Source: a virus (Duplodnaviria; Caudoviricetes). From it: a DNA stretch of 62,169 nt. The notes beneath the pieces were generated by a model, which was not told where the DNA came from, did no database searches, and worked only from the letters and a program-made list of their open reading frames with translations. This document shows, in pieces, positions 6,282 to 57,500 of the stretch; within the stretch, counting starts at the first letter, position 1, and the number at the start of each line of letters is the position of its first letter. The stretch lies in IMG/VR virus record IMGVR_UViG_3300031696_000001, positions 1-62,169 of that record; one strand, 5' to 3'. The position numbers and the translations under genes were made by a program.

Positions 6282-6300
6282 TTTATTTGATTTATTATTT

Positions 6301-6468
6301 ATTATGTTAACTTTATGTTAACTTTTTTTTACTAACTACTACTTATATATTCTTTATTTATGACTATATGATAAGAAATATATATATATATATATAAAAG
6401 AAGTAAGTTTAGGTTTAGGCTTTATATAGAGAGTATATAAATTACAAGTAAAATCGTCATCTCATCAT
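6301..6468. repeat. origin-like element 1: inverted ATGAY pairs flanking an (AT)n tract
   Basis: ATGAC 6360 and ATGAT 6368; (AT)n 6378-6396; GTCAT 6456 and ATCAT 6464; tandem TATGTTAAC upstream; adjacent to the primase-helicase start. Confidence 0.6.
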
Positions 6469-6478
6469 TTTTAAGAGG

Positions 6479-6502
6479 AAAGAAAAGGGGCATGAAGCCC
6501 CT
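6479..6502 (-). terminator. intrinsic terminator after SSB
   Basis: AGGGGC-TTCAT-GCCCCT followed by TTTCTTT on the minus strand. Confidence 0.7.
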
Positions 6503-6525
6503 AATCTATTCTCTTGGGTTGAAAT

Positions 6526-10894: not shown

Positions 10895-11064
10895 TATTTT
10901 ATTTTTAGTCCATCGTTAATTTTAATAGCTTTCTTTAAGCTAAGTGTCCAGTCTTTGATAACATTATCAATATTTTTATCTATTGTAGCATTATGCTTAC
11001 CCTTAGATTTTTTAAGTTTCTCAATCTCTTGGATTAAGAATTCTTGTAATTTGTTATTTTTCAT
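10894..11064 (-). CDS. small hypothetical protein (56 aa)
   Basis: MKNNKLQEFL...; TAATG coupling to the next gene. Confidence 0.6.
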   Translation of the reverse strand: MKNNKLQEFLIQEIEKLKKSKGKHNATIDKNIDNVIKDWTLSLKKAIKINDGLKIK

Positions 11065-11069
11065 CTTAT

Positions 11070-11345
11070 TTATATTAAATTAATCATTACAGTACCAGCA
11101 TCATACCACTCAGAGTACCATCCTCTTTTCTTTAACTCTTCTTCCCATTTATTAAGTACTCCAAATACTCTGTTATTATGATCCTCAGAATAGTAGTCAT
11201 ATATTACCTCTCCTTTATACTCCTCCATAGATTCTCCACATAAGTGTATACCTCCAGTGCCTCCGCTAAAGTCTTCTGATGTACCTACAAACTCTTGATG
11301 TTTTGATAACCAATTCATCATTTGGTTTCTTTTTATTGCTTTCAT
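11070..11345 (-). CDS. hypothetical protein
   Basis: 91 aa, ...GWYSEWYDAGT. Confidence 0.8.
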   Translation of the reverse strand: MKAIKRNQMMNWLSKHQEFVGTSEDFSGGTGGIHLCGESMEEYKGEVIYDYYSEDHNNRVFGVLNKWEEELKKRGWYSEWYDAGTVMINLI

Positions 11346-11377
11346 TGTTTATTTAAATTTGATTATTAATTCGTTTG

Positions 11378-11409
11378 CAAAGATAAGTAATATATATTTA
11401 TTACACAAG
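11378..11409 (-). promoter_or_regulatory. Bacteroidota-type early promoter
   Basis: CTTG-N20-TATCTTTG on the minus strand. Confidence 0.7.
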
Positions 11410-11430
11410 TTTTATACAACTTATTTACAC

Positions 11431-11778
11431 TTATCGGTAGTCATCACAAAATAATTGCCATTCCATCCATCGCTCAATCTTTACCAGCTCTTTGATGGAT
11501 GTTAATTGCACATTTAATATTAATATTGATTTATCATTCTCTTTACTTATCTCATCACTATACTTTGGCATAATATCATCTCCATCATTGTTATACCAAA
11601 ACTCCCCAATAATTTCTCCACATATTGCCTCTATCTCAATTAAAGAATCATTGTAGTATCCTCCAGTACCTTTGTGCAATGCCTTTGAAATCTTATTAAC
11701 TATTGATTGCATCTCCTTAATTTGCTTATCTTGTTCTTGTGGTATCTCAACCTCGTATACATCGTTAAATACTTTCAT
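11431..11778 (-). CDS. hypothetical protein, paralogue of 12453..12782
   Basis: Shared QIKE..S...KI......TGGYYNDS(L/I)I motif. Confidence 0.8.
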   Translation of the reverse strand: MKVFNDVYEVEIPQEQDKQIKEMQSIVNKISKALHKGTGGYYNDSLIEIEAICGEIIGEFWYNNDGDDIMPKYSDEISKENDKSILILNVQLTSIKELVKIERWMEWQLFCDDYR

Positions 11779-11875
11779 TTTGTGTGCTTTAAATTTTAGG
11801 AATCAACTGTTGACTCCTTGTACCACCAAAACCTCACTACTTTCGTAGCAAGGCAAATGGTGTCCAACACACAAT
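11779..11875 (-). ncRNA. structured RNA motif copy A (GNRA hairpin, GGTA linker, RGGARTCAR/TTGATTCCT hairpin)
   Basis: Hairpins at 11824-11862 and 11798-11818; homologous to 13562-13655 with compensatory changes. Confidence 0.7.
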
Positions 11876-12160
11876 TTATCTATTTAAGGCATTCATTATA
11901 CCTTTACCTATTATCCTTTGTCTTTCTCTAAATTCAGAACAATCTATCTCTACCTTATCAAACCATTTTACATCCTTACTATTATCTAATTTGATGATGA
12001 CATCTCCATATTTATTTAGGATCTGTTGCTTGTACCTAATAAGACTATCTTTATCATACACTAATCTCATACTATCTCCTCCATTAGGCATATGTACTTG
12101 TCCTAAAAATATCTCCATTAACATATCATATGTTAACCATCTTAATTTCATTCTTATCAT
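11876..12160 (-). CDS. hypothetical protein
   Basis: 94-aa ORF. Confidence 0.75.
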   Translation of the reverse strand: MIRMKLRWLTYDMLMEIFLGQVHMPNGGDSMRLVYDKDSLIRYKQQILNKYGDVIIKLDNSKDVKWFDKVEIDCSEFRERQRIIGKGIMNALNR

Positions 12161-12165
12161 ATCTA

Positions 12166-12450
12166 TTATATTTCAGTTAATATTCCGTTAATCTCCTCAT
12201 ACTCATAGTCTTCAGGACATTCCCATTCAGTCCAATAGTAAATTTCATCATTGTAAGCCCATTCAAGTAGTCCATCATCATCTAATAAACTTAGAGGTAT
12301 ATCGTTTCCCTCTTCATCTTCAGCAGTCCAATCCTTACTCCTGAGTAGCTTAATTAAGTCCTTCTTATGCTTGATATATTCATTGTCATTGAATACATAA
12401 CCATCATTCATTCCCTCTCCCGTTACCGAGCAACATCTTGCATATTTCAT
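12166..12450 (-). CDS. hypothetical phage protein
   Basis: MKYARCCSVTGEGMNDGY...YYWTEWE. Confidence 0.8.
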   Translation of the reverse strand: MKYARCCSVTGEGMNDGYVFNDNEYIKHKKDLIKLLRSKDWTAEDEEGNDIPLSLLDDDGLLEWAYNDEIYYWTEWECPEDYEYEEINGILTEI

Positions 12451-12452
12451 AA

Positions 12453-12782
12453 TTATCTTTTTATTTCCTCCATTAGTAATTCAACCTTTACCATCTTAGT
12501 AATTGATGATAATGTTTCTTTTAAGTCCTTGATAGTAACCTTATTTTGAAGTCCTATCTCAACACTATAAACCATACTCTCCTCCTTTAAGTAGTATCCA
12601 TCAGCATCCATTATTCCATTTGCATAAGCAAACTCATCCCATATATAGCTTGAATCATCAGTACAGATTATACTATCATTATAGTAACCTCCCGTTGATT
12701 TACCTACTTGATTAGCAATCTTTCTCATTAAGGATGATACCTCCTTAATCTGTATCTGTTGAATTTGTGTATCTAATTTCAT
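12453..12782 (-). CDS. hypothetical protein, paralogue of 11431..11778
   Basis: Shared TGGYYNDS motif; lies directly downstream of the hammerhead. Confidence 0.8.
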   Translation of the reverse strand: MKLDTQIQQIQIKEVSSLMRKIANQVGKSTGGYYNDSIICTDDSSYIWDEFAYANGIMDADGYYLKEESMVYSVEIGLQNKVTIKDLKETLSSITKMVKVELLMEEIKR

Positions 12783-12808
12783 GTTGTTGGTGTTAATTGG
12801 TATCTTAT

Positions 12809-12863
12809 GATACTGACACTACTTGCGTAGTGTTTCGGCTAATAGAAGCCTCATCAGAGTATC
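12809..12863 (-). ncRNA. type I hammerhead ribozyme
   Basis: GAUACU-CUGAUGA-GGCU(UCUAUU)AGCC-GAA-ACACUAC(GCAA)GUAGUGU-C^AGUAUC: complete core, three perfect stems, GUC cleavage triplet. Confidence 0.93.
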
Positions 12864-12865
12864 TA

Positions 12866-13561
12866 TTATTTGTTATGATGGTGTATGTGAGTCTCTATCA
12901 AATCATCAGAGTATCTCTTGATTACCTCATTCCAATCTATAAGGTTTATATCATTTGCATTGAATTCATCCTCTCTAACTAATCTGAAGAATGTTTGTAA
13001 GATATCCTCTTTCCAATACTCAGTATTATCTAACACTAAACATAATCGGTAGGTTTGGATGTTTGTGTATCCGTTAACCTTTACACTATCCATAATTGAT
13101 TTACCAATTTCATCTCCATTCTCATCAATACAAGCATCATTCTGAGCATCTACCCAAGCATCTGATTGATATTTTTTAACATCAACTGCATCTCCATTCT
13201 CATCAAAATCTCCTAAGATATCCTCATCTCTGCAATCAGGACATATATCACAGAAATCATGTTCTTCTCTTGTCATGTCTTTATCACATACCTCACAAAT
13301 AGGTTCAAACTCCTCTCCAGCTATTCTCGGTAGGAAATGCTCATCCTCTGCATATATACCTTTGAAATCATGCAGTACATCCGTTAACCTATGCTCTAAG
13401 TTATTTACTACTGCTATTACCCATTCTGGGTTTAATTCTACTACTCTGCCTATTGCCGTCTTACTATCTACTCCAAAGTTTAACTGCCAATCTTGGCTAA
13501 GGAAAAAATTCATTGGCATAAGGAAATTTAATCTTGGTACTAACATCTCATCTCTTTTCAT
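12866..13561 (-). CDS. hypothetical protein with Cys cluster (likely start MKRDEML at 13561)
   Basis: CEVC...CDICPDC and two DENGD repeats. The ORF-track start at 13588 lies inside an RNA hairpin, while 13561 follows the TTAAARCACACAA leader. Confidence 0.75.
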   Translation of the reverse strand: MKRDEMLVPRLNFLMPMNFFLSQDWQLNFGVDSKTAIGRVVELNPEWVIAVVNNLEHRLTDVLHDFKGIYAEDEHFLPRIAGEEFEPICEVCDKDMTREEHDFCDICPDCRDEDILGDFDENGDAVDVKKYQSDAWVDAQNDACIDENGDEIGKSIMDSVKVNGYTNIQTYRLCLVLDNTEYWKEDILQTFFRLVREDEFNANDINLIDWNEVIKRYSDDLIETHIHHHNK

Positions 13562-13655
13562 CTTGTGTGTTTTAATGGTAGGAATCAATTGCTGATTCCC
13601 TCTACCTCGAATAACTCACATATCTCTATGCAAGTCGTTCGGTAGTGGTGTTAGG
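13562..13655 (-). ncRNA. structured RNA motif copy B
   Basis: Hairpins at 13602-13645 and 13580-13600; same layout as 11779-11875. Confidence 0.7.
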
Positions 13656-13868
13656 TTAGATAGTATCGTATCCTAACTCAGATAACCATTCGTTATAAAA
13701 TTTGTACATTTCCTCCTTAGTACGGTACATTATACCTGCTGAAGTAGGGTGATTGGATATACTCTGATAGTAAGTAATACATCCGTTACCATCTGACATC
13801 TTCTCCTTATAAAGATATATCTTGTATCCCTCGCAAACCTTGTCCATATGTAATGTGTGTAATAGCAT
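13656..13868 (-). CDS. hypothetical protein
   Basis: 70-aa ORF. Confidence 0.7.
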   Translation of the reverse strand: MLLHTLHMDKVCEGYKIYLYKEKMSDGNGCITYYQSISNHPTSAGIMYRTKEEMYKFYNEWLSELGYDTI

Positions 13869-13886
13869 AATTTATTCTCTTTTTTA

Positions 13887-14162
13887 TTAGTTATTTAGGT
13901 ATAATTCTGATTTCTCAATGTTCTTGATTTCATACTTAGGTAATTCATCTAAGTACATGGTGTAAACATCCCATATTGACTCGCACTTATCATTTATCTT
14001 ATCCCATTCCCTCCCTTCTTCCCCAATTAGATTGGAAATTATATCTCTTGCATCATTACAGGAATGATACTTGCTTAACCATGTTGTTGCCTTGTTTACA
14101 AGGGATTGATTCTTCTTGTTTACTGCTGTAATTGTCTCATCGTAGACTCTAATTTTACTCAT
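13887..14162 (-). CDS. hypothetical protein (first early gene)
   Basis: 91 aa, preceded by TTAAAGCACACAATT and a promoter. Confidence 0.8.
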   Translation of the reverse strand: MSKIRVYDETITAVNKKNQSLVNKATTWLSKYHSCNDARDIISNLIGEEGREWDKINDKCESIWDVYTMYLDELPKYEIKNIEKSELYLNN

Positions 14163-14202
14163 AATTGTGTGCTTTAAGTTAATGTTGTGTTTAAATTCTG
14201 TG

Positions 14203-14233
14203 CAAAGATAGTTTATTAAATTGGATAATCAAC
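14203..14233 (-). promoter_or_regulatory. Bacteroidota-type early promoter
   Basis: GTTG-N19-TATCTTTG on the minus strand. Confidence 0.7.
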
Positions 14234-14435
14234 TATAATTTCAAAAGAATTGTTGTTCCATATACTCAAGATACTGTAAGTGATTGATAATCAGCATACA
14301 TAAGATATCTTAATTTACCTGGTAAATTGGTGATATGTTTATGTGTTTGGGGTGTCGATGGGGTACTAAGAGACATCTCTTTGTCTCTATTAATTCTCTT
14401 TAAGTTTATAATGTGGGGAGTATTGGGGAATCCGT

Positions 14436-14460
14436 AGTCATTAAGGAGTCATTAAGGAGT
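14436..14460. repeat. tandem 11-bp repeat AGTCATTAAGG x2 plus AGT
   Basis: Read directly from the sequence. Confidence 0.9.
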
Positions 14461-14491
14461 AAGTAATGCGTGTAACGAGGGAACAGTAGGG

Positions 14492-14534
14492 GTGTGCATG
14501 GGGCTGAGACTGGCAGTGTGCATGGGGCTGAGAC
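14492..14534. repeat. 19-bp direct repeat GTGTGCATGGGGCTGAGAC x2 with 5-bp spacer
   Basis: Copies at 14492-14510 and 14516-14534. Confidence 0.9.
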
Positions 14535-14669
14535 AAAAAGACGGATTTAAATCAATGAAAATTTAGCTTTTCCAGAAAACTTTTGAAAAAAATATTCGTT
14601 TCCTGAGAGGGGGTGCTGTGCGTATGACATATAATAACCCTCAACCCCGAGACGTCTAAAAAAATTTTT

Positions 14670-14677
14670 TATCTTTG
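14670..14677 (+). promoter_or_regulatory. -7 promoter box TATCTTTG (first promoter of the plus arm)
   Basis: Matches TAnnTTTG, 14 nt before ATG 14692. Confidence 0.65.
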
Positions 14678-14691
14678 CTAAAATAAACACT

Positions 14692-14739
14692 ATGAAAAAG
14701 AAAACTAAAAAGAAAGTAAAAACAACAAAAGGATATTAA
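14692..14739 (+). CDS. 15-aa Lys-rich micropeptide MKKKTKKKVKTTKGY
   Basis: Lies between the promoter and the next ATG (1-nt gap). Confidence 0.45.
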   Translation: MKKKTKKKVKTTKGY

Positions 14740-14740
14740 T

Positions 14741-14968
14741 ATGAAAAAAATGACAAACCCATTTATAGGCTCTGACAATGTAGACGGCTTATATGTAAAG
14801 GACGGTAGACTAATGAATGAACGTGAGGACGGTGAGACTGGTATAGCACAGGCTTCTCGTTATAGAAAGCAAATGAAAAAACAATACAAGATTGATTGTA
14901 TAGCGGACGGTATTGAGCGTGCTGAGATGAGAAAAAAAATGGATCGTTTCGATAAATACGATTACTAA
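14741..14968 (+). CDS. hypothetical protein
   Basis: 75-aa ORF followed by a terminator. Confidence 0.75.
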   Translation: MKKMTNPFIGSDNVDGLYVKDGRLMNEREDGETGIAQASRYRKQMKKQYKIDCIADGIERAEMRKKMDRFDKYDY

Positions 14969-15040: not shown

Positions 15041-15236
15041 CATGACAAGAACCTGTCATACTCATGATAGCTTAAAAACAAACTCGTCATAGCCTAACTA
15101 ATTGGTTTCTATTCTTTTATATTTATTTATGACAAGATGACAAGAATAAAGTAGTTATTCTATAAAGAAAAGTATAAAGAAGAGTAGTGTATATATATAT
15201 ATATAAATAGAAAACTTTTTTTTATCATATTGTCAT
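15041..15236. repeat. origin-like element 2: inverted ATGAY pairs flanking an (AT)n tract
   Basis: ATGAC 15129 and 15137; (AT)n ~15190-15205; ATCAT 15224 and GTCAT 15232; extra ATGAC/GTCAT at 15042-15090. Confidence 0.6.
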
Positions 15237-15277
15237 ATTATATTTTAAATATAATTCTTTACTTTATTTTATTTTAT

Positions 15278-15285
15278 TATCTTTG
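15278..15285 (+). promoter_or_regulatory. -7 box TATCTTTG upstream of groEL
   Basis: TTATTATCTTTGC. Confidence 0.65.
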
Positions 15286-15317
15286 CAGCAAATTAAATCA
15301 ATTTAAATTCTATTACA

Positions 15318-16898
15318 ATGCAAGAACAGGGATACGTACCTAAGGACCTTCACTTCGATGAGTCTGCTCGTGAAAAACTAATATCGGGAATCTCCAAAAT
15401 ATCTAATGCAGTTAAGAGTACTCTTGGGCCACAAGGGCAGACAGTGCTTATTGAATCTACAGAACATACTCAAGGATTAACAGTAACTAAAGATGGTGTT
15501 ACTGTAGCTAAGAGTATATTCCTTATTGATCCTGTAGAGAACTTAGCGGTTAGGATGATGAAGCAAGCTTCGGAGAAGACGGCTAACACCGCAGGTGATG
15601 GAACCACTACAGCAATTGTTTTGACTGAGGCATTAGTAAAGGCTGGTCAGAAGTATATTAGTAAAAAGGATAATACTATCCAGGTTGTTAGAGAGATTAG
15701 AGCTGCAGGGGATAAGCTATTAGAAAGAATTAAAAAAGAGTCAAGAGAGGTAACTGACGAAATGCTTGTAGATATTGCAACTATCTCTGCAAATAACGAC
15801 AAGGAGATTGGCGATATCATTGCTAAGGCATACAAAGAGGTTGGTAGAGATGGTATAGTTACTGTAGAGAGATCTCAAACTGATAAGACATATGCTGAGG
15901 TCACTAATGGTATAAAGGTTGATAGAGGGTATACTTCTACAATGTTCATTAATGACCAAAGAAAAGACGAGTGTATTTTGGAAGGGGTTAAGGTTCTCTT
16001 ATGCGATACTGAGATTACTAATATCCTGCAAATTGAGAATATACTTAAACCAATTATTAATTCTGGTGACAAATTACTGATCATAGGTAACTGTTCGACT
16101 AATGTTATTAATACTTTAGCTGCAAATGTGCAGCGTAATGGGTTAAAGTTCTGTAATATTATGGTACCATCCTTTGGATACAAGGCTCACGAGCTAATGC
16201 AAGACATCGCATTCTCTGTAGGAGCTAAATATTTTTCAGAACAAACAGGAGATGACTTATCTTTAATCAGAATGGAGGACTTAGGTATAGCTGATAAAGT
16301 TATAGTAGGTAAAGACTCTACCATTATTATTAAGGATGGTGAGATTACTAAGGAAATAGAGGATCGTGTAGAAGAGCTTAGAGTGCAGCAAACAACTTTA
16401 ACGGCAAAACATGAGCGTGAGTTTGTGAATGAGCGTATAGCGTCCTTAATTGGAGGTATAGGTTGTATTCAAGTAGGTGCTACATCAGACATTGAGCAAA
16501 AAGAAAAATTCGACAGAGTCGATGACTCTGTCTGTGCAGTGCGTTCTGCACTACAGGAAGGAATTGTAGCGGGAGGTGGGTTGTTATTATCTACTTTAGC
16601 TAAAGAGTTTAAGGGAGATAGTGCATGTGATAGAATATTAAAGGAAACTTTAGAAGCACCTATAGCACAGATATTAAAAAATGCAGGATTAGATGTTACT
16701 AAAATATATACTAAAGCATTAAAAGAAAATGAAGGTTATAATGTGGTTACTGGTGAATTTGGGGATATGTTTGAGATGGGTGTTATTGATCCTGCTAAGG
16801 TTACAATACAAGCCCTATCTAACGCAATCAGCGTTGCAACCACAATACTTACTACGAACGCTATTATTACTCATGCAAGAATTCATACCGATGCTTAA
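15318..16898 (+). CDS. groEL: phage-encoded chaperonin GroEL
   Basis: STLGPQG, VTKDGVTVAK, AGDGTTTA, GIVAGGG, GVIDPAKV; lacks the GGM tail. Confidence 0.96.
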   Translation: MQEQGYVPKDLHFDESAREKLISGISKISNAVKSTLGPQGQTVLIESTEHTQGLTVTKDGVTVAKSIFLIDPVENLAVRMMKQASEKTANTAGDGTTTAIVLTEALVKAGQKYISKKDNTIQVVREIRAAGDKLLERIKKESREVTDEMLVDIATISANNDKEIGDIIAKAYKEVGRDGIVTVERSQTDKTYAEVTNGIKVDRGYTSTMFINDQRKDECILEGVKVLLCDTEITNILQIENILKPIINSGDKLLIIGNCSTNVINTLAANVQRNGLKFCNIMVPSFGYKAHELMQDIAFSVGAKYFSEQTGDDLSLIRMEDLGIADKVIVGKDSTIIIKDGEITKEIEDRVEELRVQQTTLTAKHEREFVNERIASLIGGIGCIQVGATSDIEQKEKFDRVDDSVCAVRSALQEGIVAGGGLLLSTLAKEFKGDSACDRILKETLEAPIAQILKNAGLDVTKIYTKALKENEGYNVVTGEFGDMFEMGVIDPAKVTIQALSNAISVATTILTTNAIITHARIHTDA

Positions 16899-16983
16899 GT
16901 TTTTAAAAAGTTTATTTACTTTAAAGGAGAGTGGAAACCAAAGATTATTAAGAAAAATAAAAGAATATGAAACCAATAGGTAA
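16891..16983 (+). CDS. small hypothetical peptide (30 aa) between groEL and groES
   Basis: MLKFLKSLFTLK... overlaps both neighbours. Confidence 0.4.
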   Translation: MLKFLKSLFTLKESGNQRLLRKIKEYETNR

Positions 16984-17224
16984 GTACATTGTAATTAAAA
17001 TGATTAAAGAAGAGCTTAGAACTGAGTCTGGTCTTTTATTGTCTGCTCAAGATGCTTCAGAGTTTAGGTATAAAAAAGGAGAAGTAATTAAGGAAGGTAC
17101 TGATGTGAGTGTTATTACTACTGGAGATATAATTTACTATGATGCAGGAGCTGGTCATAATATGTTAATTGAAGAAAATCCTTACACCATTATTCAGGAG
17201 AGAGATGTCGTTGTTGTTTTATAA
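16967..17224 (+). CDS. groES: co-chaperonin GroES
   Basis: MKPIGKYIVI...TESGLLL...GEVIKEG...GDIIYY...IIQERDVV. Confidence 0.9.
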   Translation: MKPIGKYIVIKMIKEELRTESGLLLSAQDASEFRYKKGEVIKEGTDVSVITTGDIIYYDAGAGHNMLIEENPYTIIQERDVVVVL

Positions 17225-17676: not shown

Positions 17677-17721
17677 TATCTTTGCAATACCAAAAGTAAT
17701 AAATAAATATTATTATCTTTG
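17677..17721. promoter_or_regulatory. overlapping divergent promoters
   Basis: Plus-strand TATCTTTG at 17677 and 17714; minus-strand TACTTTTG at 17691-17698. Confidence 0.55.
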
Positions 17722-17746
17722 TCAAAATATTAAAAAAAAATAAATC

Positions 17747-18151
17747 ATGGGAGTTAAAGTAAAACCAAGAGAAGGAGGTCCAAAAGTAAAAGTAAATTTA
17801 AATAGAAAAAAAACCATACCAATGGTTGGAGCCCCTGTTGTTAAGAAAAAGACTGTTGTTAAGAAAAAGACTGTGGTTAATAAAAAGCCTGTGGTTAAAA
17901 AAAAGCCTGTGGTTAAAAAAAAGCCTGTTCTTAAGAATAAAAACATTGTAGATACTAAGATGAAAAATGTAGTACCAATGGTTAAAAAGAAGGTGAGACA
18001 AAAAATAAAGAATATTAAAAATTCTACTCCTAAACAGTTAGTTAAAAAATCAATTAATGCCGTTACAAGTAAGGTTAAAAAATATTACATTAAACCAACC
18101 ATTCGTAGAGCAAAAGCTTTAAAGAGTTTATACGGAAGAATAACAAAATAA
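17747..18151 (+). CDS. Lys-rich histone-H1-like basic protein
   Basis: Six (P/T)VVKKK-type hexapeptide repeats. Confidence 0.7.
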   Translation: MGVKVKPREGGPKVKVNLNRKKTIPMVGAPVVKKKTVVKKKTVVNKKPVVKKKPVVKKKPVLKNKNIVDTKMKNVVPMVKKKVRQKIKNIKNSTPKQLVKKSINAVTSKVKKYYIKPTIRRAKALKSLYGRITK

Positions 18152-20619: not shown

Positions 20620-20640
20620 AACATATTCCAATCTTTTTAT

Positions 20641-20648
20641 TATCTTTG
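20641..20648 (+). promoter_or_regulatory. -7 box TATCTTTG
   Basis: TTTTTATTATCTTTGT upstream of 20681. Confidence 0.65.
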
Positions 20649-20680
20649 TAAAAAATTAATTATTAATAAAATCTATTAAA

Positions 20681-37852: not shown

Positions 37853-37887
37853 AGAGGTCTACAAATAAAGTGGGCCTCTTTTTTTTT
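37853..37887 (+). terminator. intrinsic terminator
   Basis: AGAGGTCTAC-loop-GTGGGCCTCT followed by a T-run. Confidence 0.85.
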
Positions 37888-37889
37888 AT

Positions 37890-37897
37890 TATCTTTG
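37890..37897 (+). promoter_or_regulatory. -7 box TATCTTTG for the tail operon
   Basis: Abuts the terminator T-run. Confidence 0.65.
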
Positions 37898-37915
37898 TAA
37901 AAATGTTTAAATAAT

Positions 37916-38869
37916 ATGGCTGCATCAATAAACGAAGTAAGAAATACTGTATTAGCAATAGCGAATAAAAATAACTACGGATATATATCTCCTCAGGACT
38001 TTAACCTTTATGCTAAACAAGCTCAAATGGATATGTTTGAGGATTACTTTTATTCATATAATAATTGGATTAATAGAGAAAATGGAAGAACTTCAGGAAC
38101 AGGATATGCAAATATAACCAAGGGGTTAGTTGAGGTAATAGATGGGTTTTCAACTCAAGTTTTTTTAGCTCAAAATATTTCTAATACTTTCTCTTTACCT
38201 AATGATTTTTATTTAATTAATAAATTATTTTATTATTCTACCCCTTTATTTACAGGAACCGCAACAACTGTACTTGCTAATTCATTGGTAGATTTTAATG
38301 CTGTAGGATGGAATACAATACCAGCATCATCTCCAACACCTAAAATAGGATCGTTAATAGTAAACACAACTACCTTAAAACAAGCTTATGTTACTGGAGT
38401 TGTAAGTACAACTCAAATAACTTTAAGTGATAATATATTTAATGTTATTGGAGAATCTTATATAATATATTCTAACACTAATATTAGGGAGGTGGAACGA
38501 GTAAGTCAAAATAAAATATTTTTGTTAACTAATTCTATGTTAACAGCACCAACTAAAACTTATCCAGCATATGTATTAGGTGGTAATATAGTTACTATAT
38601 ATCCTTCTACAATTTTAAATGCTGGAGATATACAAGCTCAATATGTAAGGTATCCACTTTCTCCAAGATGGACATACTTAAATTTAGAATTAGGAGAGCC
38701 ACAATTTGATCCAACACAATCTGACTTTCAAGAGTTTGAATTACCAGATTCTGATGAGCCTACGTTAATAGCAAAAATTTGTCAGTATGTAGGAATAGAA
38801 ATTAGAGAGGCTGATGTTTATAATTTTGGGGCAACTGAAGAAGGTAACGATACACAAGAAACAAGTTAA
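37916..38869 (+). CDS. head-tail adaptor / ring protein
   Basis: INEVRNTVLAIANKNNYGYISPQDFNLYAKQAQ resembles crAss-type ring proteins. Confidence 0.65.
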   Translation: MAASINEVRNTVLAIANKNNYGYISPQDFNLYAKQAQMDMFEDYFYSYNNWINRENGRTSGTGYANITKGLVEVIDGFSTQVFLAQNISNTFSLPNDFYLINKLFYYSTPLFTGTATTVLANSLVDFNAVGWNTIPASSPTPKIGSLIVNTTTLKQAYVTGVVSTTQITLSDNIFNVIGESYIIYSNTNIREVERVSQNKIFLLTNSMLTAPTKTYPAYVLGGNIVTIYPSTILNAGDIQAQYVRYPLSPRWTYLNLELGEPQFDPTQSDFQEFELPDSDEPTLIAKICQYVGIEIREADVYNFGATEEGNDTQETS

Positions 38870-51501: not shown

Positions 51502-54500
51502 ATGGATAATTTAGAAAAATTATATAACGTTTTAAAAAGGGATGGGTTTATTACTAAATCTTTTGATGAATTCGTTGATCAAGCAACTCAGGATTCTGAC
51601 TATCAGGATAAAATATTTAATGTAGTAAGTCGTGAAGATTTGTTTACTGGAAGTCCAGATGAGTTTTCAAAAAAATATTTTTCAGAACTTGCTACATCTC
51701 CTGTTGAAGAGGTAAAAAAAAAAGACGATTCTCAACCTACTGGGGAAGAGGAAGTTATGGTATCCGATACAGAAGTGGTGGACGAGCGTGGATCATCGGA
51801 GCCTTCTGTTCAGATAAATTCTGAAGAAGAAATTGTTGATCCTGAAACTTTAGGTGAAATAGAACAAATTCAAGAAGTTCCAAATAGATTTGGAGCGGAC
51901 ACTCCCAAAGAAGAGATGTTTCTACATGATGATGAAATTGCTATTGGCGTTCAGCCAGGTGAGGAAGATACTACTATTGAAGAAATATTTGGTAAAAATG
52001 AATTCACTGATTTCTTTGGTGATATGTGGAGAGCTGGAGCTCAAGGGCAAGCTCAAGGAGGGACTGTAGATGAATCATTAGAACTTTTAATGAAAGGAGG
52101 AAATGCTTCTCAGAATGATATAGAAGAATTCTTAATTTCATATCAAGCAATGCAAAGGGCTGGTGTATCTGATGAAATGAATGCCTTCAATAAAATATAC
52201 CAAAAAGATGGCGGAGGTATATTAGGTTTTATAAAAGGAGTTGCCGCTAACCCAACCGTTGTACCTCAATTATTTATCTCATCTGTAAGTGCTATGGTAA
52301 ACCCTACTGTACTTGCAGCGGCTACAGCAGGTGCTGTAGCGGGTAGTGTTATTCCAGGAGCGGGTACTATAGCTGGTGGAATGTTTGCAGCAGGTACTAC
52401 ATTAGAAACAGCCCTTACATTTGGTGAGCTTTTAGAGGAGGCTCTTGATGGTGAGCCAATGACAAACGCTAACATTCGTTCTGTACTTGAAGATGCTGAA
52501 AAAATGAGTAGTATAAGAATGAAAGCACTGGGGCGTGGTTTAGCTATTGGTGCTATTGATGGTTTAACAGGTGGTCTTGCAACTAAGTTAACTACAAGTG
52601 TTGCTAAGGCTACATCAAAAGCTGGTAAAACTGTATCTCGATTAACAGCTGCAACAGCTGGCGGTACACTTGAGGCTGTAGGTGGATCAACAGGTGAAGT
52701 TGTTGGTAGATTAGTTGCGGGTCAAGAAATGGATGTTGCTGAAATATTATTTGAAGGTGTTGCTGGTACTGCTACAGCTCCGATTACTGTAGGTGCTGGA
52801 TTACTTAATGCTGCAAGAAAACCTCCCGTTTATGAAATGAATAAAGGCCCTGCTACAAGAGCAGATATAATAGAGCTTTTAGAAAGTGATGATACTGATG
52901 CTATATTAGATGCTGAAGTTAGTGTTGAAAATGATCCTGAATTAAGTAAACAAGTTGAGGCTGCTAAGAAAAAAATATTAGATAAAAAAGTTTTAAATAG
53001 AGATTTAAAAGATGCTGGTATTACAGATCAAAATGCTATAGATGAAATGACTGCTTTAGAAGAAGAGGCAGAAGCTTTAAAGGGAAATAATACAAGAGCA
53101 GGGAAGAGAAGATTAGCTGAAATTAATCAACGTATTGATGATATACTTGATACGGCAGCAGTAGAACAAGAGGTTGAGGTTACAATCGAAGATAAAGTAA
53201 CTACAGAGTCTGAAAGATTAGCGGCATTAGAAGAAACTTTAGAGGGTAAAGATTTAGAAGTATTGCAACTGATGAGGGATAAAAATAAGAGTCAGGATAT
53301 GATTGATAATCATATTAAAAATAAAGCTAAAAATACTGGTAAAGGAAATCAACTATCAACAAAATTTAAAGCCGAAGACACATTACTAAATCCTGAAGGA
53401 AAATCATTTGCTGAATTAGTATCAGCTTATTCTTTAATATTTGAAGGTAAAAACCTACCAGTAAAAACAATACAAGATATATTAGCGGATACTCCTGATT
53501 TAAGAGATTTAAATTTAGGAAATACTAATAGGTTTTATCCTCTTCAACAAGCTATTCTAAATTTTGAATCTTATCAAAATAAAAAAAATAACCAAAAAAC
53601 TAAACAAGATGCCATTCAAGAGGTAAGCGTAGAAGAACAAGAGGTTGAAATACAAAAAGAGAGGGATGATTATGAAAAAAAATATTTTACCCTTGATGAA
53701 GAAAATCAAAAAAATAAAGATAAAGGAGAGACTTATTCATACTCTGCAGAAAACCTTAACGAAGGATTTACTTTAGAAGAAGCTCAGGAAGCAAAAAGGG
53801 TAATGGAAGCTAAACATGATAATTTATTAAAAACTAAAACTGAACAAAATGCCATTCAAGAGTCAAGCACAGAGAGCGTGGATGTACAAGAACCTACCGA
53901 AAGTAGCACAGAAGTGGGAGACGGAAACACCCAAAGGAACGCTACCCAAGAAAGTATCGAGAGTGAAGCAGATACTGAAACGCAATCGCAAGAGGAAGTA
54001 GAAACGGTTACTGAAAATAGTGATGGAACTTTAAGTATACCTAATCCAAAAACAGGAAAGGTTGCTAAGTTAAAAGGTAAAAAGATAGGGGAAACATCAA
54101 ATCTTTATATTTCAGATATGATATCTGAAAACATAGATCCTTCATATGAAGGTAATACAGAAGCTAAAACTAAGCAAGAGAATTATATAACAAAAATTGC
54201 AATTAAAGCAGCTAAATCTATTGCTAAGTTATTGCCTAATACAAATATAATATTACATAGTACAGAGGCTTCATATAATAAGGGAGCTGGTCAAGTATCT
54301 CAAATATATACAAGAAAAAAGGGATCACGTGGGGTTTTTAAGCCAACCACAAACGATATTCATATTAATATGACTCATGCTAATGCCAAGACAATAGCAC
54401 ATGAAATATTTCATGCTTTACTTTATAATAAGTTTAAGAGTGATGAGAGGATAGGTATTGTTACTTATAAAATGGTTGAGTCTATTAAGAAAAAAATTAC

Positions 54501-57500
54501 AGATCCAAAATTAAAGAAACAACTACAGAAATTTAGTGATAATTATACTGAAACTCCACAGTTTCAAGATGAAGAATATCTTGCTGAATTAATTGGTACT
54601 CTTGCAGATAATTATAAATCATTAAAAAGGCCTGAAAAAACTATAGTTCAGAAGTGGTTAAATAAATTAAAGAATATAATGGGTATGGAGGCAGAGGTAA
54701 TAGATACTGATGCTGATACATTAGATTTATTAGCTACTATTGCTGAGAATATTAAGGAAGGTAAAGAAATTACAGAGTCTGATATTTCTCAATTAGATAC
54801 GTTTGAACAAGGAGAAGGCGGTGAAGTAGGTGTTTTAAACTTTTCAGATAAAGAATCTAAAATAAACCCAGCCCCAAAAGTCGAGTCAGATAGTAGGCCA
54901 TTTTCAAGCCTTATAAAAAATAAAGATATTAGTGACTTTGATGGTCAAAACTTTGTTACCAATATGTATGACTTTACTACAGCTGGTATAGTTGATATTG
55001 GTAATGGTATTACTTTACAGTTGGAGGGCGGTAAAAGTTATGTTCCATTAATGATGAGTAGAAAAGGGTTAAAAATAGGTGATGTATCAAATCTTGCTGC
55101 CTTTAACACTAAGTCTCAAGCTGAAGGGTTTATTAGAAACTCACAAGAGGGTAACGCTAAACTATTTATGCCTCACTCTGGAACATTAGAAGGGTCTTGG
55201 CAGTTCCAACAATCTATATTTGAACAGATTATTAAAGTTATTTTAGACAATAAGATTGTAACAAACAAAGAATTAATATCATCTCTTAGTAAGGGTCTTG
55301 TAAATAAAAAGGGAAAAGAAATAAAAGAGTGGAGAATATTTAAGGAAAATTACAAGAAGGCTACAGGTAAAGACATAAATAACCTTGATTCTTTTGTTAA
55401 AGATCCGTTGCAATTAGTTAAATTATTAGATATTGAAAACAACTACTCTCCAGATTTAAGAAAAAGATTTAACTCATTGGTAATCTCTATCAAAAAATTT
55501 AAAGATGCGACTGGAGTAACAAGTAAAACAGACTTTGCTTTAAAGATAATGGATCCTCTTAATGAAGGTATAGAAGCGTTTGATCTTATGTCCGTTATAG
55601 AGTTTGATAATACAACTTTTGAAATAAGTAAGCCTAAAAAAGGAGATGTTGATTATCATCCATCTTTTGCGTGGACTATTAAAGCAAAAATCAAAGGTAT
55701 ATACCAACCAACTAATTTTCAGAAGTCTTATGATATAACTGATTCATATGTTAAATATAATCAAGAGGGACCTTCAAAATCTACAAGAGATAATAAGTTA
55801 GAAAGAGAATATGGATTAGCGTTAAAAGGAAAAAAGATTAACGATAAAGGAAAGGTTGTAAAGCGAAGTAAATCAGAGATTGGGGGTGAATTTTATGAGG
55901 GAACATACCCAGAGTTTCAAGAATATAAGTTTCAAGTATCTAACGTAGCAAGTAGTGCAGGGTCTATACCAAAGGTAGCTAAAGTAAATAATACAACTGA
56001 TAAAGCACAGAAACTAACAACTGAAGAGGTATATTCTGAAATAGGAATGACTACTGATGAGGTTAAGGCTTGGAAAAAGGATAACAATAAAAGTATTAAA
56101 ATGCCTCATCCTAAGGCAGCTCTTGAGGCAGCTAATAGTTACTCTAATGGAGATATAACTCTTAATGAATACAATGAAATTATTCAAAAAGAAATGCCTA
56201 TTACTCCTTACACTAAGGTTCCAAAGCCTGCTACTATAAAGGATGTAGTTTTAGCATTACAGCCTAATAAAGTTCAGAAAGGAATTATAGGATTAACAAC
56301 AGAAATTAAGGATGGAGAAAAAGTATCATCTCGTTTAGATATACCATCATATCAATCTCATGGTATATATGTAGATACTATTCATGGTCCTAAAGGTAAA
56401 GGAGTACTTGGATACGGGCAGACAGCTGTTCTTAAAAATGTAGAATTTACAAGTAATGCTAAAAAAGCATTAGGGGTAGCTAAAGGTACTCAATCAAAAT
56501 CACCATTTGCCGTTATGGATGGGTCGTATGTTAATGAAAGTACAGAGAGTGCAACTAAGAGAGCTCAAGAAGCTCTTAATAGTAATGAGTGGGTTCAGGT
56601 AGGATTTAATCCTTATCGTCAAGCATCATTCTATAATAAAGCAGATAGCAGGCCTGTTACATCAGCTGCTGAAATTATACAAGTTGGACCATTAGTAATG
56701 GCTAAAGGAGTGAAGTATGGTAAGCCTTTAAAAATATCACCAGATGGAAATGAAAGATTTCAATTAGTGGATGATTATTCTGTAAAAGAAACAGGTCAAG
56801 GAGAGTTTACATTAATGAAGGGAATTAGAAGGGCGGGAGAGATGTCTATTGCTGAATTACAATCTGATAAACCAAGTGTATCCCAAGTGTACATCAAAAA
56901 ATTTGATCAAGGGAAAGGATTAGCTCCTGATATGTATAGAGAGATAGCTAATATATTAGCTCTTAAAGGAAAAATATTAACATCTTCTAAGTTCACTAAT
57001 AATGCTTCACAAGGAGTATGGAAAAGATTAGTTAAAGATGGTGATGCAATAGTTATAGGCAGTCGTATTGATGCTGAGGGTAAAAAAAGAGATCTATATT
57101 CTATGCTTCCTACAGATCCTTTATTAGAAGGAGTATCTAATGAACGTGAGCAAAAAACAACTCCTGATAGTATTGAGGGATATAATAGAATGATTAAGGA
57201 GGTTGAAAATATTATATCTAAATCTGAAAAACGTGGGGTAAAGTTTAATGATATTTCTAAGAATGTAATTAATTACATCCAAGGATCTAAGGTTTATGAA
57301 ATAGCTACTGACATCCAGCGTGAGGATATTATAAGGGATGTGAGAGCAAAATTTGGTATAAAAGAAAAAGCAGCTCCATCAGTAAAGAATGTAATAGGTA
57401 AGGCAATGTCTGTTCTTTTTGGAGAAACAAAAGAAATAAAAAAGTTTACTGTAACAGAGAAACAATTATTAATACAAAGACTTAAGCAATTAAACGAAGG

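What the first reader, a model, noticed from the sequence alone, without database searches (positions are those of the whole stretch)
11779..11875. Unassigned two-hairpin RNA motif, copy A: candidate new processing element or ribozyme
Seen (minus strand): CACCA-uuu-GCCUUGCUAC-GAAA-GUAGUGAGGU-uu-UGGUG-GUACA-AGGAGUCAA-cag-UUGAUUCCU, then UUAAAGCACACAA and AUG. Compared with copy B it shows compensatory changes (UAC/GUA vs AUA/UAU; C-G vs A-U), a retained GNRA loop, retained G-U pairs and the GGUA-N-A linker. The 5' UUGUGUGUU can also pair with AGCACACAA next to the start codon, closing a three-way junction. It does not fit the hammerhead, twister, pistol, hatchet or HDV consensus as I recall them. 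Established: several ribozyme classes were found through genomic association with known ribozymes.
Basis: partly seen in the sequence, partly recalled or inferred. Interest (0 to 1): 0.8.

Follow-up and report, generated by a model that had tools for sequence, protein, structure and literature searches.

The report
Hammerhead-replacing RNA hairpin in phage operons
A conserved, previously uncatalogued RNA hairpin sits between early genes of a marine Bacteroidota-type phage exactly where related phages carry hammerhead ribozymes, so it is probably a second way of cutting or punctuating the early messenger RNA.

Summary
Window 11779-11875 (minus strand) is a whole intergenic spacer that folds as described. 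A second copy lies at 13562-13655.

The conserved unit is only the first hairpin: a lower stem, a U-rich internal loop and an upper stem, followed by an invariant GGUA. A covariance model finds 44 copies (E<0.01), all on the early-gene strand, in 28 of 85 sources. Pattern scans add at least 182 more. Both stems covary, and frequent U.G pairs make the fold strand-specific, so it acts as RNA.

The second hairpin is optional (24 of 38 copies). The proposed closing helix and three-way junction are not conserved. GNRA loops are common but not required.

No Rfam 15 family matches. The same operons hold 26 complete type I hammerheads at the same kind of site: just after a stop codon and about 25 nt before the next AUG. 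In 6 of 17 multi-member families of downstream genes, some members follow a hammerhead and others follow the hairpin.

Best reading (about 0.5): a hammerhead-equivalent mRNA processing or punctuation element, most likely cut by a host nuclease. A new self-cleaving ribozyme is not excluded (about 0.2). No cleavage evidence could be obtained.

The parts
11779..11875 (-). Copy A: the whole intergenic spacer between ORF 11876-12160 and ORF 11431-11778
   Evidence: Fold -40.4 kcal/mol, z -6.94. R1 hit 11818-11870, 55.5 bits.
11824..11862 (-). Copy A hairpin 1, the conserved core: lower stem CACCA/UGGUG, internal loop UUU/UU, a 10-bp upper stem with U.G and G.U pairs, and a GAAA loop
   Evidence: Family covariation for the upper stem and the lower stem.
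11819..11823 (-). Copy A linker GUACA. It holds the family-invariant G-U-A that follows the lower stem, and it lies about where a hammerhead's cleavage site would lie.
   Evidence: Invariant columns in A5. The GGUA-to-AUG distance matches the hammerhead cleavage-site-to-AUG distance.
11798..11818 (-). Copy A hairpin 2 (9 bp, loop CAG). This is an optional leader hairpin, not part of the conserved core.
   Evidence: Present in 24 of 38 copies.
11779..11797 (-). Copy A A-rich leader up to the AUG of ORF 11431-11778. In copy A only, its CA-rich end can pair with 11864-11872.
   Evidence: The pairing is not conserved.
13562..13655 (-). Copy B: the whole intergenic spacer between ORF 13656-13868 and ORF 12866-13561
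   Evidence: R1 hit 13600-13652, 39.1 bits.
13602..13645 (-). Copy B hairpin 1: lower stem CUACC/GGUAG plus GAA/UUC, a 10-bp upper stem and a GAGA loop. The lower stem's register is shifted, so the GGUA is itself paired.
13580..13600 (-). Copy B hairpin 2 (8 bp, loop GCAAU)
12809..12863 (-). Type I hammerhead ribozyme in the spacer between ORF 12866-13561 and ORF 12453-12782. It has CUGAUGA, GAAA, three stems and a GUC triplet, with predicted cleavage between 12815 and 12814. It is the functional counterpart of hairpin 1 in this operon.
   Evidence: Sequence. Architecture script. Weak RAGATH-1-hammerhead match, 24.5 bits, E 0.39, below the gathering score of 56.3.
11431..11778 (-). Gene downstream of copy A (115 aa, no Pfam family). 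It is a paralogue of ORF 12453-12782, which lies downstream of the hammerhead.
   Evidence: blastp 41% identity, E 1.9e-13. Pfam gave no match.
12453..12782 (-). Gene downstream of the hammerhead (109 aa), paralogue of the gene downstream of copy A

Best explanation
Hairpin 1 plus its GGUA tail is a cis-acting RNA element of the phage's early polycistronic mRNAs. It does the same job as the type I hammerheads in these operons: it punctuates the transcript between one gene's stop codon and the next gene's short A-rich leader.

The most likely mechanism is endonucleolytic processing at or just 3' of the hairpin, in the GGUA-N-A region or the U-rich internal loop. The cutting enzyme would be a host nuclease, either RNase III-like acting on the bulged helix or a single-strand-specific enzyme acting on the linker.

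After the cut, the upstream mRNA would end in a protective hairpin. The downstream mRNA would begin with a 5' leader of about 20-35 nt, often carrying its own small hairpin.

Shown here:
- the structure
- its strand specificity
- its position
- its interchangeability with hammerheads

Inferred, not shown:
- that the RNA is cut
- where it is cut
- what cuts it
For: (1) Real structured RNA.
- R1 finds 44 hits with E<0.01 in 28 of 85 sources (1.36 Mb, both strands). All 44 lie on the primase/early-gene strand.
- Upper stem: 94.7% of cells paired vs 73.3% in shuffles. 6 of 10 pairs change on both sides, 81 compensatory cells, 0 of 500 shuffles as high, and slid controls reach at most 51%.
- Lower stem: 4 of 5 pairs change on both sides and 91.9% of cells are paired. 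Cognate 5' flanks give -6.69 vs -4.44 kcal/mol for swapped flanks.
- Explicit lower-stem switches are seen: CGUGG/CCACG, GGUGG/CACC, CUAGG/CCUAG, GUAGG/CCUAC, GGUAG/CUACC.
- U.G pairs dominate some columns (UG 32 of 43), so the complementary strand would not fold.

(2) Breadth. They gave 182 copies with stems of 7 bp or more and 88 distinct upper hairpins.

(3) Position.
- The element starts 2-11 nt after a stop codon in most copies.
- 176 of 182 copies have an ORF start within 80 nt. The median GGUA-to-AUG distance is 23 nt (quartiles 16-34), or 34 nt in the primase-linked set.
- The distance from the hammerhead cleavage site to the AUG has a median of 25 nt in 26 hammerheads.

(4) Hammerhead equivalence.
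- 26 complete type I hammerheads lie on the same strand in 18 sources, and 11 of those sources also carry the hairpin.
- 6 of 17 multi-member clusters of downstream proteins contain both hammerhead-preceded and hairpin-preceded members. One case is the window's own paralogues.
- In pattern-selected loci, hammerheads occur on the same strand in 19 of 96 and 12 of 74 loci, and on the opposite strand in 0.

(5) The AUAR-loop leader hairpin that follows hairpin 1 also follows 4 of 26 hammerheads. This points to a modular layout: a cutting module, then an optional leader hairpin, then the leader.

(6) A review states that bacterial hammerhead and twister ribozymes have been proposed to process polycistronic transcripts (PMC6765202, passages seen).
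Against: - No cleavage was observed. RNA-library contigs of run X17 bridge copy A (11047-11964) and the hammerhead (12425-13519). These contigs therefore cannot report cuts, and DNA carry-over is possible.
- Total helix length is often only 13-19 bp, short for a classical RNase III substrate (recalled requirement of about two helical turns).
- One strand is strongly conserved in sequence (GG at the stem base, UUU, GGUA). That is more than a structure-reading nuclease should need.
- Pfam found no nuclease of the RNase III, E or Y type among 43 phage ORFs. The enzyme would have to come from the host.
- Several copies sit just downstream of TAnnTTTG promoter boxes rather than after a gene. There, separation from an upstream cistron is not needed.
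Confidence: 0.5

Rival explanations
1. Hairpin 1, with or without flanks, is a new class of self-cleaving ribozyme. It would cut itself near GGUA or in the U-rich internal loop without any protein.
For: - It occupies the same slots as hammerheads and swaps with them before homologous genes.
- This kind of association is how pistol and related classes were found (PMC4604425, passages seen).
- Nucleotides are invariant or nearly so beyond what pairing needs: the GG at the stem base, UUU and GGUA.
- No Rfam family matches, even at E up to 10 with lax filters.
- No phage nuclease was found.
Against: - The conserved unit is one bulged hairpin of about 45 nt. No conserved junction, second helix or pseudoknot was found. 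The best excess pairing between flanks is 0.14 in 238 copies.
- The 5' strand of the internal loop varies from 0 to 7 nt with no conserved sequence, and the lower stem shifts register.
- Terminal loops vary freely.
- Every known small self-cleaving class has a multi-helix or pseudoknotted core (recalled).
- By my recollection many ribozyme-associated candidate motifs did not cleave when tested. The source paper is not held.
Confidence: 0.2
2. A leaky intrinsic terminator or attenuator: the upper hairpin plus the U run stops part of transcription between early genes, possibly under phage antitermination control.
For: - The stem has a G+C-rich base followed directly by UUUU, often with a tetraloop.
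- The 5' flank is A-rich in some copies.
Against: - There are only 4 U. The phage's evident terminators carry 8-9 U (alignments). The consensus scan does not call A or B.
- The lower stem covaries using bases 3' of the U run, so the read-through RNA is the form under selection.
- The downstream gene starts about 23-34 nt later with no TAnnTTTG box in between.
- A terminator is not a natural substitute for a hammerhead.
- The element is rare in cellular genomes: strong matches on 6 contigs among 100 pattern hits in 596 Gb.
Confidence: 0.1
3. A binding site for a protein, or for RNA polymerase or the ribosome, that regulates the downstream gene without cleavage. Possible modes are translational operator, put- or nut-like antitermination, or a stabilising 'insulator' fold.
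For: - Sequence conservation is one-sided (GGGG-UUUU-SGUGG-UA) on a helix scaffold, as expected for sequence-specific recognition.
- The spacing to the AUG is fixed and short.
- Some copies lie in 5' UTRs directly after promoter boxes.
Against: - It does not explain replacement by a catalytically intact hammerhead at homologous genes.
- The downstream genes are diverse: 46 clusters.
- The element ends more than 14 nt before the start codon and does not occlude it.
- Hairpin 2, which a put-like two-hairpin RNA would need, is optional.
Confidence: 0.2

Closest known systems
Type I hammerhead ribozymes of the same phage group (e.g. window 12809-12863, minus strand)
   Same: - Same strand and same slot: directly after a stop codon.
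- Similar size, about 50 nt.
- Similar distance to the next AUG: median 25 nt vs 23-34 nt.
- Found before homologous genes.
- Sometimes followed by the same AUAR-loop leader hairpin.
   Different: - No CUGAUGA/GAAA core and no three-way junction.
- One bulged hairpin with a conserved 3' strand.
- No match to the hammerhead models.
RNase III processing sites of phage T7 early mRNA (R0.3 to R1.3). Recalled, not tested here.
   Same: Repeated intergenic hairpins made of an upper and a lower stem around an internal loop. They lie between early genes and after early promoters, and share sequence among copies.
   Different: - The host is a Bacteroidota-type bacterium.
- The helix is shorter.
- The invariant GGUA lies outside the helix.
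- Cleavage by RNase III is not shown.
Ribozyme-associated candidate RNAs (RAGATH motifs) of Weinberg et al. 2015
   Same: A structured motif recognised by its genomic association with hammerheads in phage-like DNA.
   Different: - No Rfam match, whichever RAGATH families Rfam 15 holds. RAGATH-1-hammerhead, RAGATH-6 and RAGATH-18 were seen named. No family of any name overlapped copy A or B.
- The original paper and its supplement could not be read, so identity with an unpublished-in-Rfam candidate is not excluded.
Synthetic ribozyme insulators such as RiboJ (hammerhead plus a downstream hairpin). Recalled.
   Same: The layout is a cutting element, then a small hairpin, then the translation start. 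It frees the downstream gene from its upstream context.
   Different: The element here is natural, and cleavage is unproven.

Membership tests
Hammerhead ribozyme | Conserved core CUGAUGA ... GAAA ... UH at a three-way junction | tested here: not met
   The core is absent from copies A and B. Rfam hammerhead models hit the three true hammerheads of L011 but not the hairpin at L011:1747-1799. The three-way junction is not conserved.
Twister, twister-sister, pistol, hatchet, HDV-like, hairpin ribozymes and the RAGATH families that Rfam holds | Match to the family covariance model | tested here: not met
   0 matches at the gathering score in the window. With lax filters and E up to 10 over 11400-14000, 5 matches were found and none overlaps A or B. 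The same holds for L011:1-2000.
Self-cleaving ribozyme (any class) | Site-specific self-scission giving 2',3'-cyclic phosphate and 5'-OH ends | not testable with these tools
   Only assembled contigs of RNA libraries were available. They bridge even the hammerhead.
RNase III processing hairpin (T7 type) | Extended helix of about two turns interrupted by an internal loop | tested here: inconclusive
   The upper stem is 9-10 bp and the lower stem 4-9 bp, with an asymmetric loop. Many copies total fewer than 20 bp.
RNase III processing hairpin (T7 type) | Cleavage by RNase III | not testable with these tools
   No assay was possible.
Intrinsic terminator | G+C-rich hairpin followed at once by a long U tract, with the RNA ending there | tested here: not met
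   Only 4 U. Not called by the scan. The covarying lower stem uses bases beyond the U run.
HK022 put-like antitermination RNA (recalled definition: two obligatory stem-loops after early promoters) | Two conserved hairpins | tested here: not met
   Hairpin 2 is absent in 14 of 38 copies. Most copies follow a gene rather than a promoter.
T-box leader (recalled GGUGGUACC resemblance to the T-box sequence) | Match to the T-box model, with Stem I/specifier and antiterminator | tested here: not met
   No Rfam match. The resemblance covers seven bases only.

The most novel reading that the evidence does not exclude
Hairpin 1 with its GGUA tail is the core of a new, very small class of self-cleaving ribozyme. 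It would be widespread in marine Bacteroidota phages and used interchangeably with hammerheads to cut early polycistronic mRNA about 25 nt ahead of each start codon.
Probability: 0.2. Interest if true: 0.9.

Novelty: new variant of a known kind. Interest (0 to 1): 0.7.

Why it matters
The biological role of hammerheads in phages is still open. This phage group uses a hammerhead or a quite different hairpin at the same sites, before homologous genes. That gives a natural substitution experiment: whatever the hairpin does is probably what the hammerhead is for.

If the hairpin is cut by a host nuclease, it defines a compact processing signal for Bacteroidota, a phylum with unusual translation initiation and few genetic parts. 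If it cuts itself, it would be a new and unusually small ribozyme class.

Either way it is an abundant structured RNA that Rfam lacks. The scans hit their limits at 120 viral and 119 metagenome stretches.

Tried and rejected
- **Three-way junction (P1).** It is predicted for copy A but absent in B. Cognate and swapped flanks pair equally well, so it was rejected as a family feature.
- **Naive 5-mer pairing test for the lower stem.** The background was too high because G.U pairs form with GU-rich flanks. It was replaced by energy tests and a structure-aware alignment.
- **MAFFT alignment with trimmed 5' ends.** It did not put the lower stem in register. R2 was therefore built from 8 copies of equal geometry. 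R2 is narrow: 33 hits.
- **First strict A/B pattern in viral contigs.** 0 hits.
- **blastn of 3.5 kb around the copies against GenBank phages.** No match.
- **blastn of a consensus-like copy against GenBank phages.** Only 5 partial hits with E of 3 or more.
- **R1 without filters on MW202828.1 and Flavobacterium phage elemoF early regions.** Nothing above 12.2 bits. No cultured phage with the motif was found.
- **RNA libraries.** 4 runs (X17-X20, contigs only) hold the early region.
  - X17 contigs bridge copy A and the hammerhead, and an X18 contig bridges the hammerhead.
  - Cover is low over 13536-13849 in all four runs.
  - X18 and X20 contigs stop at 11868 and 11876, but not at a common place.
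  - None of this is evidence for or against cleavage.
- **Contig ends in metagenome hits.** They show no pile-up next to the motif: 1 end within 120 nt downstream and 0 upstream among 78 copies.
- **Pattern hits in cellular genomes.** 100 hits, roughly the number my own estimate gives for chance. Only 6 contigs score 35 bits or more with R1. The three alphaproteobacterial hits look like a conserved coding region.
- **Reverse complement of the conserved strand elsewhere in the window** (a possible trans partner). Only coding-region near-matches.
- **Promoter reading.** No TAnnTTTG box lies between the motif and the AUG.
- **Terminator scan.** It does not call A or B.
- **The roughly 90-nt extra segment after the motif in L050 and L028.** No Rfam match, fold z -1.38.
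- **Literature.** Searches for hammerhead/bacteriophage/intergenic/self-cleaving/polycistronic (listing), RAGATH (listing) and hammerhead/phage/Flavobacteri terms (listing) showed no description of this motif. Weinberg et al. 2015 is not held.

Full report
**What the window is.** The 62,169-base window is a complete IMG/VR virus record.
- Small genes on the minus strand, from about 15065 down to 470, include a primase-helicase, an SNF2 helicase, a PDDEXK nuclease and a Sak annealing protein.
- The plus strand carries GroEL/GroES, terminase, portal and virion genes.
- TAnnTTTG boxes, which I recall as the Bacteroidota -7 promoter element, precede plus-strand genes (repeat families D7 and D12). 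They also precede minus-strand genes at about 14203-14210 and 11378-11385.
- The closest GenBank relatives by primase are an uncultured podovirus (64.7% identity) and Flavobacterium phages.
- The host is therefore probably a member of the Flavobacteriia. This is an inference.

**The observation.** It fills the spacer between ORF 11876-12160 and ORF 11431-11778.
- It folds into the described closing helix, bulged hairpin 1 and hairpin 2 (-40.4 kcal/mol, z -6.94).
- Copy B (13562-13655) is 71% identical over 65 nt. It folds into the two hairpins but has no closing helix.
- The compensatory differences between A and B are real.
- With filters off, a model of the family finds only these two copies in the window: 55.5 and 39.1 bits, with 11.7 bits next.

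**The family.** The primase gene led to 80 related viral loci; more than 597 stretches matched.
- blastn, and then a covariance model R1 built from 31 copies, found 44 matches with E<0.01 in 28 of 85 sources. All 44 are on the early-gene strand.
- The conserved unit has a 4-9 bp lower stem and an internal loop whose 3' side is (U/A)UUU and whose 5' side varies from 0 to 7 nt.
- Above the loop is a 9-10 bp upper stem whose base is CC(U)C/GGGG, closed by a variable loop. An invariant GGUA follows the lower stem, usually then N-A.
- Upper stem: 94.7% of cells are paired against 73.3% in shuffles. 6 of 10 pairs change on both sides, and slid controls reach at most 51%.
- Lower stem: on a structure-aware alignment of 33 copies, 4 of 5 pairs change on both sides. 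That alignment is fitted to the model, so it leans towards the structure.
- Independently, each copy's own 5' flank stabilises the helix by -6.69 kcal/mol against -4.44 for flanks swapped between copies. Relatedness was not removed in that test.
- Whole-strand switches such as CUAGG/CCUAG and GUAGG/CCUAC are visible.
- In some copies the 5' strand pairs with UUGG instead of SGUGG. The register therefore floats, while the 3' strand stays constant.
- U.G pairs are the commonest state in some columns. The fold therefore belongs to the sense strand, meaning the mRNA.

- Of 251 pattern matches, 182 have stems of 7 bp or more. They show 88 distinct upper hairpins and 60 distinct 5' arms.
- In 596 Gb of cellular genomes the same pattern gave 100 stretches, about what my own estimate gives for chance. 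Only 6 contigs score 35 bits or more with R1. Most of these are Bacteroidota-like or small MAG contigs.
- The element is therefore phage-borne rather than a general host signal.

**What is not conserved.**
- Hairpin 2 is present in 24 of 38 copies (20 of them at -3 kcal/mol or lower) and absent in 14.
- Where present, hairpin 2 falls into sequence classes with their own compensatory changes.
- The closing helix is no better between cognate flanks than between swapped flanks.
- A scan of 238 copies for fixed-register pairing between the flanks found no excess above 0.14.
- GNRA loops occur in 20 of 88 distinct hairpins.

**Comparison with known RNA families.**
- Rfam 15 gives no match at the gathering score in the window or in eight related loci beyond two tRNAs.
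- It gives no match over the copies with lax filters and E up to 10.
- In the same searches the neighbouring hammerheads do appear, weakly. They score below the gathering threshold but with full-core alignments.

**The hammerhead link.**
- The spacer 12783-12865 holds a complete type I hammerhead.
- A script requiring the core, three stems and a UH site found 26 such hammerheads on the early strand in 18 sources. 11 of those sources also carry the hairpin.
- Both elements start within a few bases of a stop codon.
- The hammerhead cleavage site lies a median 25 nt before the next AUG. GGUA lies a median 23 nt before it in the 182 pattern-selected copies and 34 nt in the primase-linked set.
- Clustering the 70 downstream proteins gave 46 clusters, 17 with more than one member. 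6 of these are mixed, with homologous genes preceded by a hammerhead in one phage and by the hairpin in another.
- The window itself shows this. The 109-aa gene after the hammerhead and the 115-aa gene after copy A are paralogues (41% identity, E 1.9e-13).
- A small AUAR-loop hairpin like hairpin 2 also follows 4 of 26 hammerheads.

**Mechanism.** The catalytic core of the hammerheads is intact, so cleavage is what these sites need. The hairpin that replaces them most likely also marks a cut, or at least a defined RNA boundary.
- I favour processing by a host nuclease. The conserved unit is a single bulged hairpin with a floating lower stem and a free-form 5' loop strand. That is a weak scaffold for catalysis. 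It resembles phage T7's RNase III sites (recalled).
- Against this view, the one-sided sequence conservation and the short helix are unusual for RNase III. Pfam found no phage nuclease among 43 ORFs.
- Self-cleavage remains possible at about 0.2.
- A leaky terminator is unlikely. There are only 4 U, covariation extends beyond the U run, the scan does not call it, and no promoter follows.
- A pure protein-binding regulator does not explain the hammerhead swap.

**Direct evidence.** Four RNA libraries hold the region, but only as assembled contigs. Some contigs bridge both copy A and the hammerhead. They say nothing about cuts.

**Novelty and limits.**
- The motif is absent from Rfam 15. No description turned up in three literature searches (listings only).
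Prior listing there cannot be excluded.
- E-values of R1 and R2 are rough because calibration was shortened.
- The pattern-selected sets are biased towards the consensus core.
- The covariation counts include related sequences.

Noticed in passing
window 12809-12863 (-): A complete type I hammerhead ribozyme lies between two early genes, with predicted cleavage between 12815 and 12814. It scores below Rfam's gathering threshold, as do all 26 hammerheads found in the relatives, so standard annotation would miss them.
   Followed up: yes
window 12800-12813 (-): Right after the hammerhead cleavage site, the 3' product can fold into a 5-bp hairpin with an AUAA loop. This reuses the stem I strand and resembles the class of hairpin 2 seen after the motif in relatives.
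   Followed up: partly
window 14163-14770 (-): A 600-nt non-coding stretch upstream of the first early gene holds direct repeats (a roughly 19-nt unit twice and a roughly 11-nt unit twice). A TAnnTTTG box lies about 40 nt before the AUG at 14162. This may be a regulatory or origin region.
   Followed up: no
window 11378-11385 (-) and 15272-15290, 17710-17746, 20637-20673, 37886-37922 (+): Recurrent TTATTATCTTTG-type boxes lie ahead of genes. They fit the Bacteroidota -7 promoter element as I recall it, and suggest that host RNA polymerase is used on both strands.
   Followed up: partly
window 6282-6525 (-) and 15066-15317: (TA)n runs of about 16-18 bases lie in two long non-coding regions, one after the primase gene and one in the divergent region between the early and late genes.
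   Followed up: no
window 17835-17960 (+): Six tandem 18-nt repeats lie inside ORF 17747-18151, encoding a lysine/valine-rich repeat.
   Followed up: no
window 15318-17224 (+), 51502-60885 (+): The phage encodes GroEL and GroES homologues and a 3127-aa protein of unknown function (PHROG 32588). One ORF matches the crAss-virus muzzle protein C-terminal domain.
   Followed up: partly
L248:3340-4560 (+): Three motif copies on a 12.8-kb MAG contig each carry an extra conserved 5' hairpin (a 7-bp stem with a CCGA loop) that overlaps the lower-stem 5' strand.
   Followed up: no
L050:1963-2060 (+), L028:396-500 (+): In two relatives the motif is followed by a shared non-coding segment of about 90 nt instead of a short leader. 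It has no Rfam match and its fold is not exceptional (z -1.38).
   Followed up: partly
L011:1231-1294, L006:5456-5549, L021:67-455 (+): Some hammerheads in relatives carry large insertions in stem III (up to about 60 nt).
   Followed up: no
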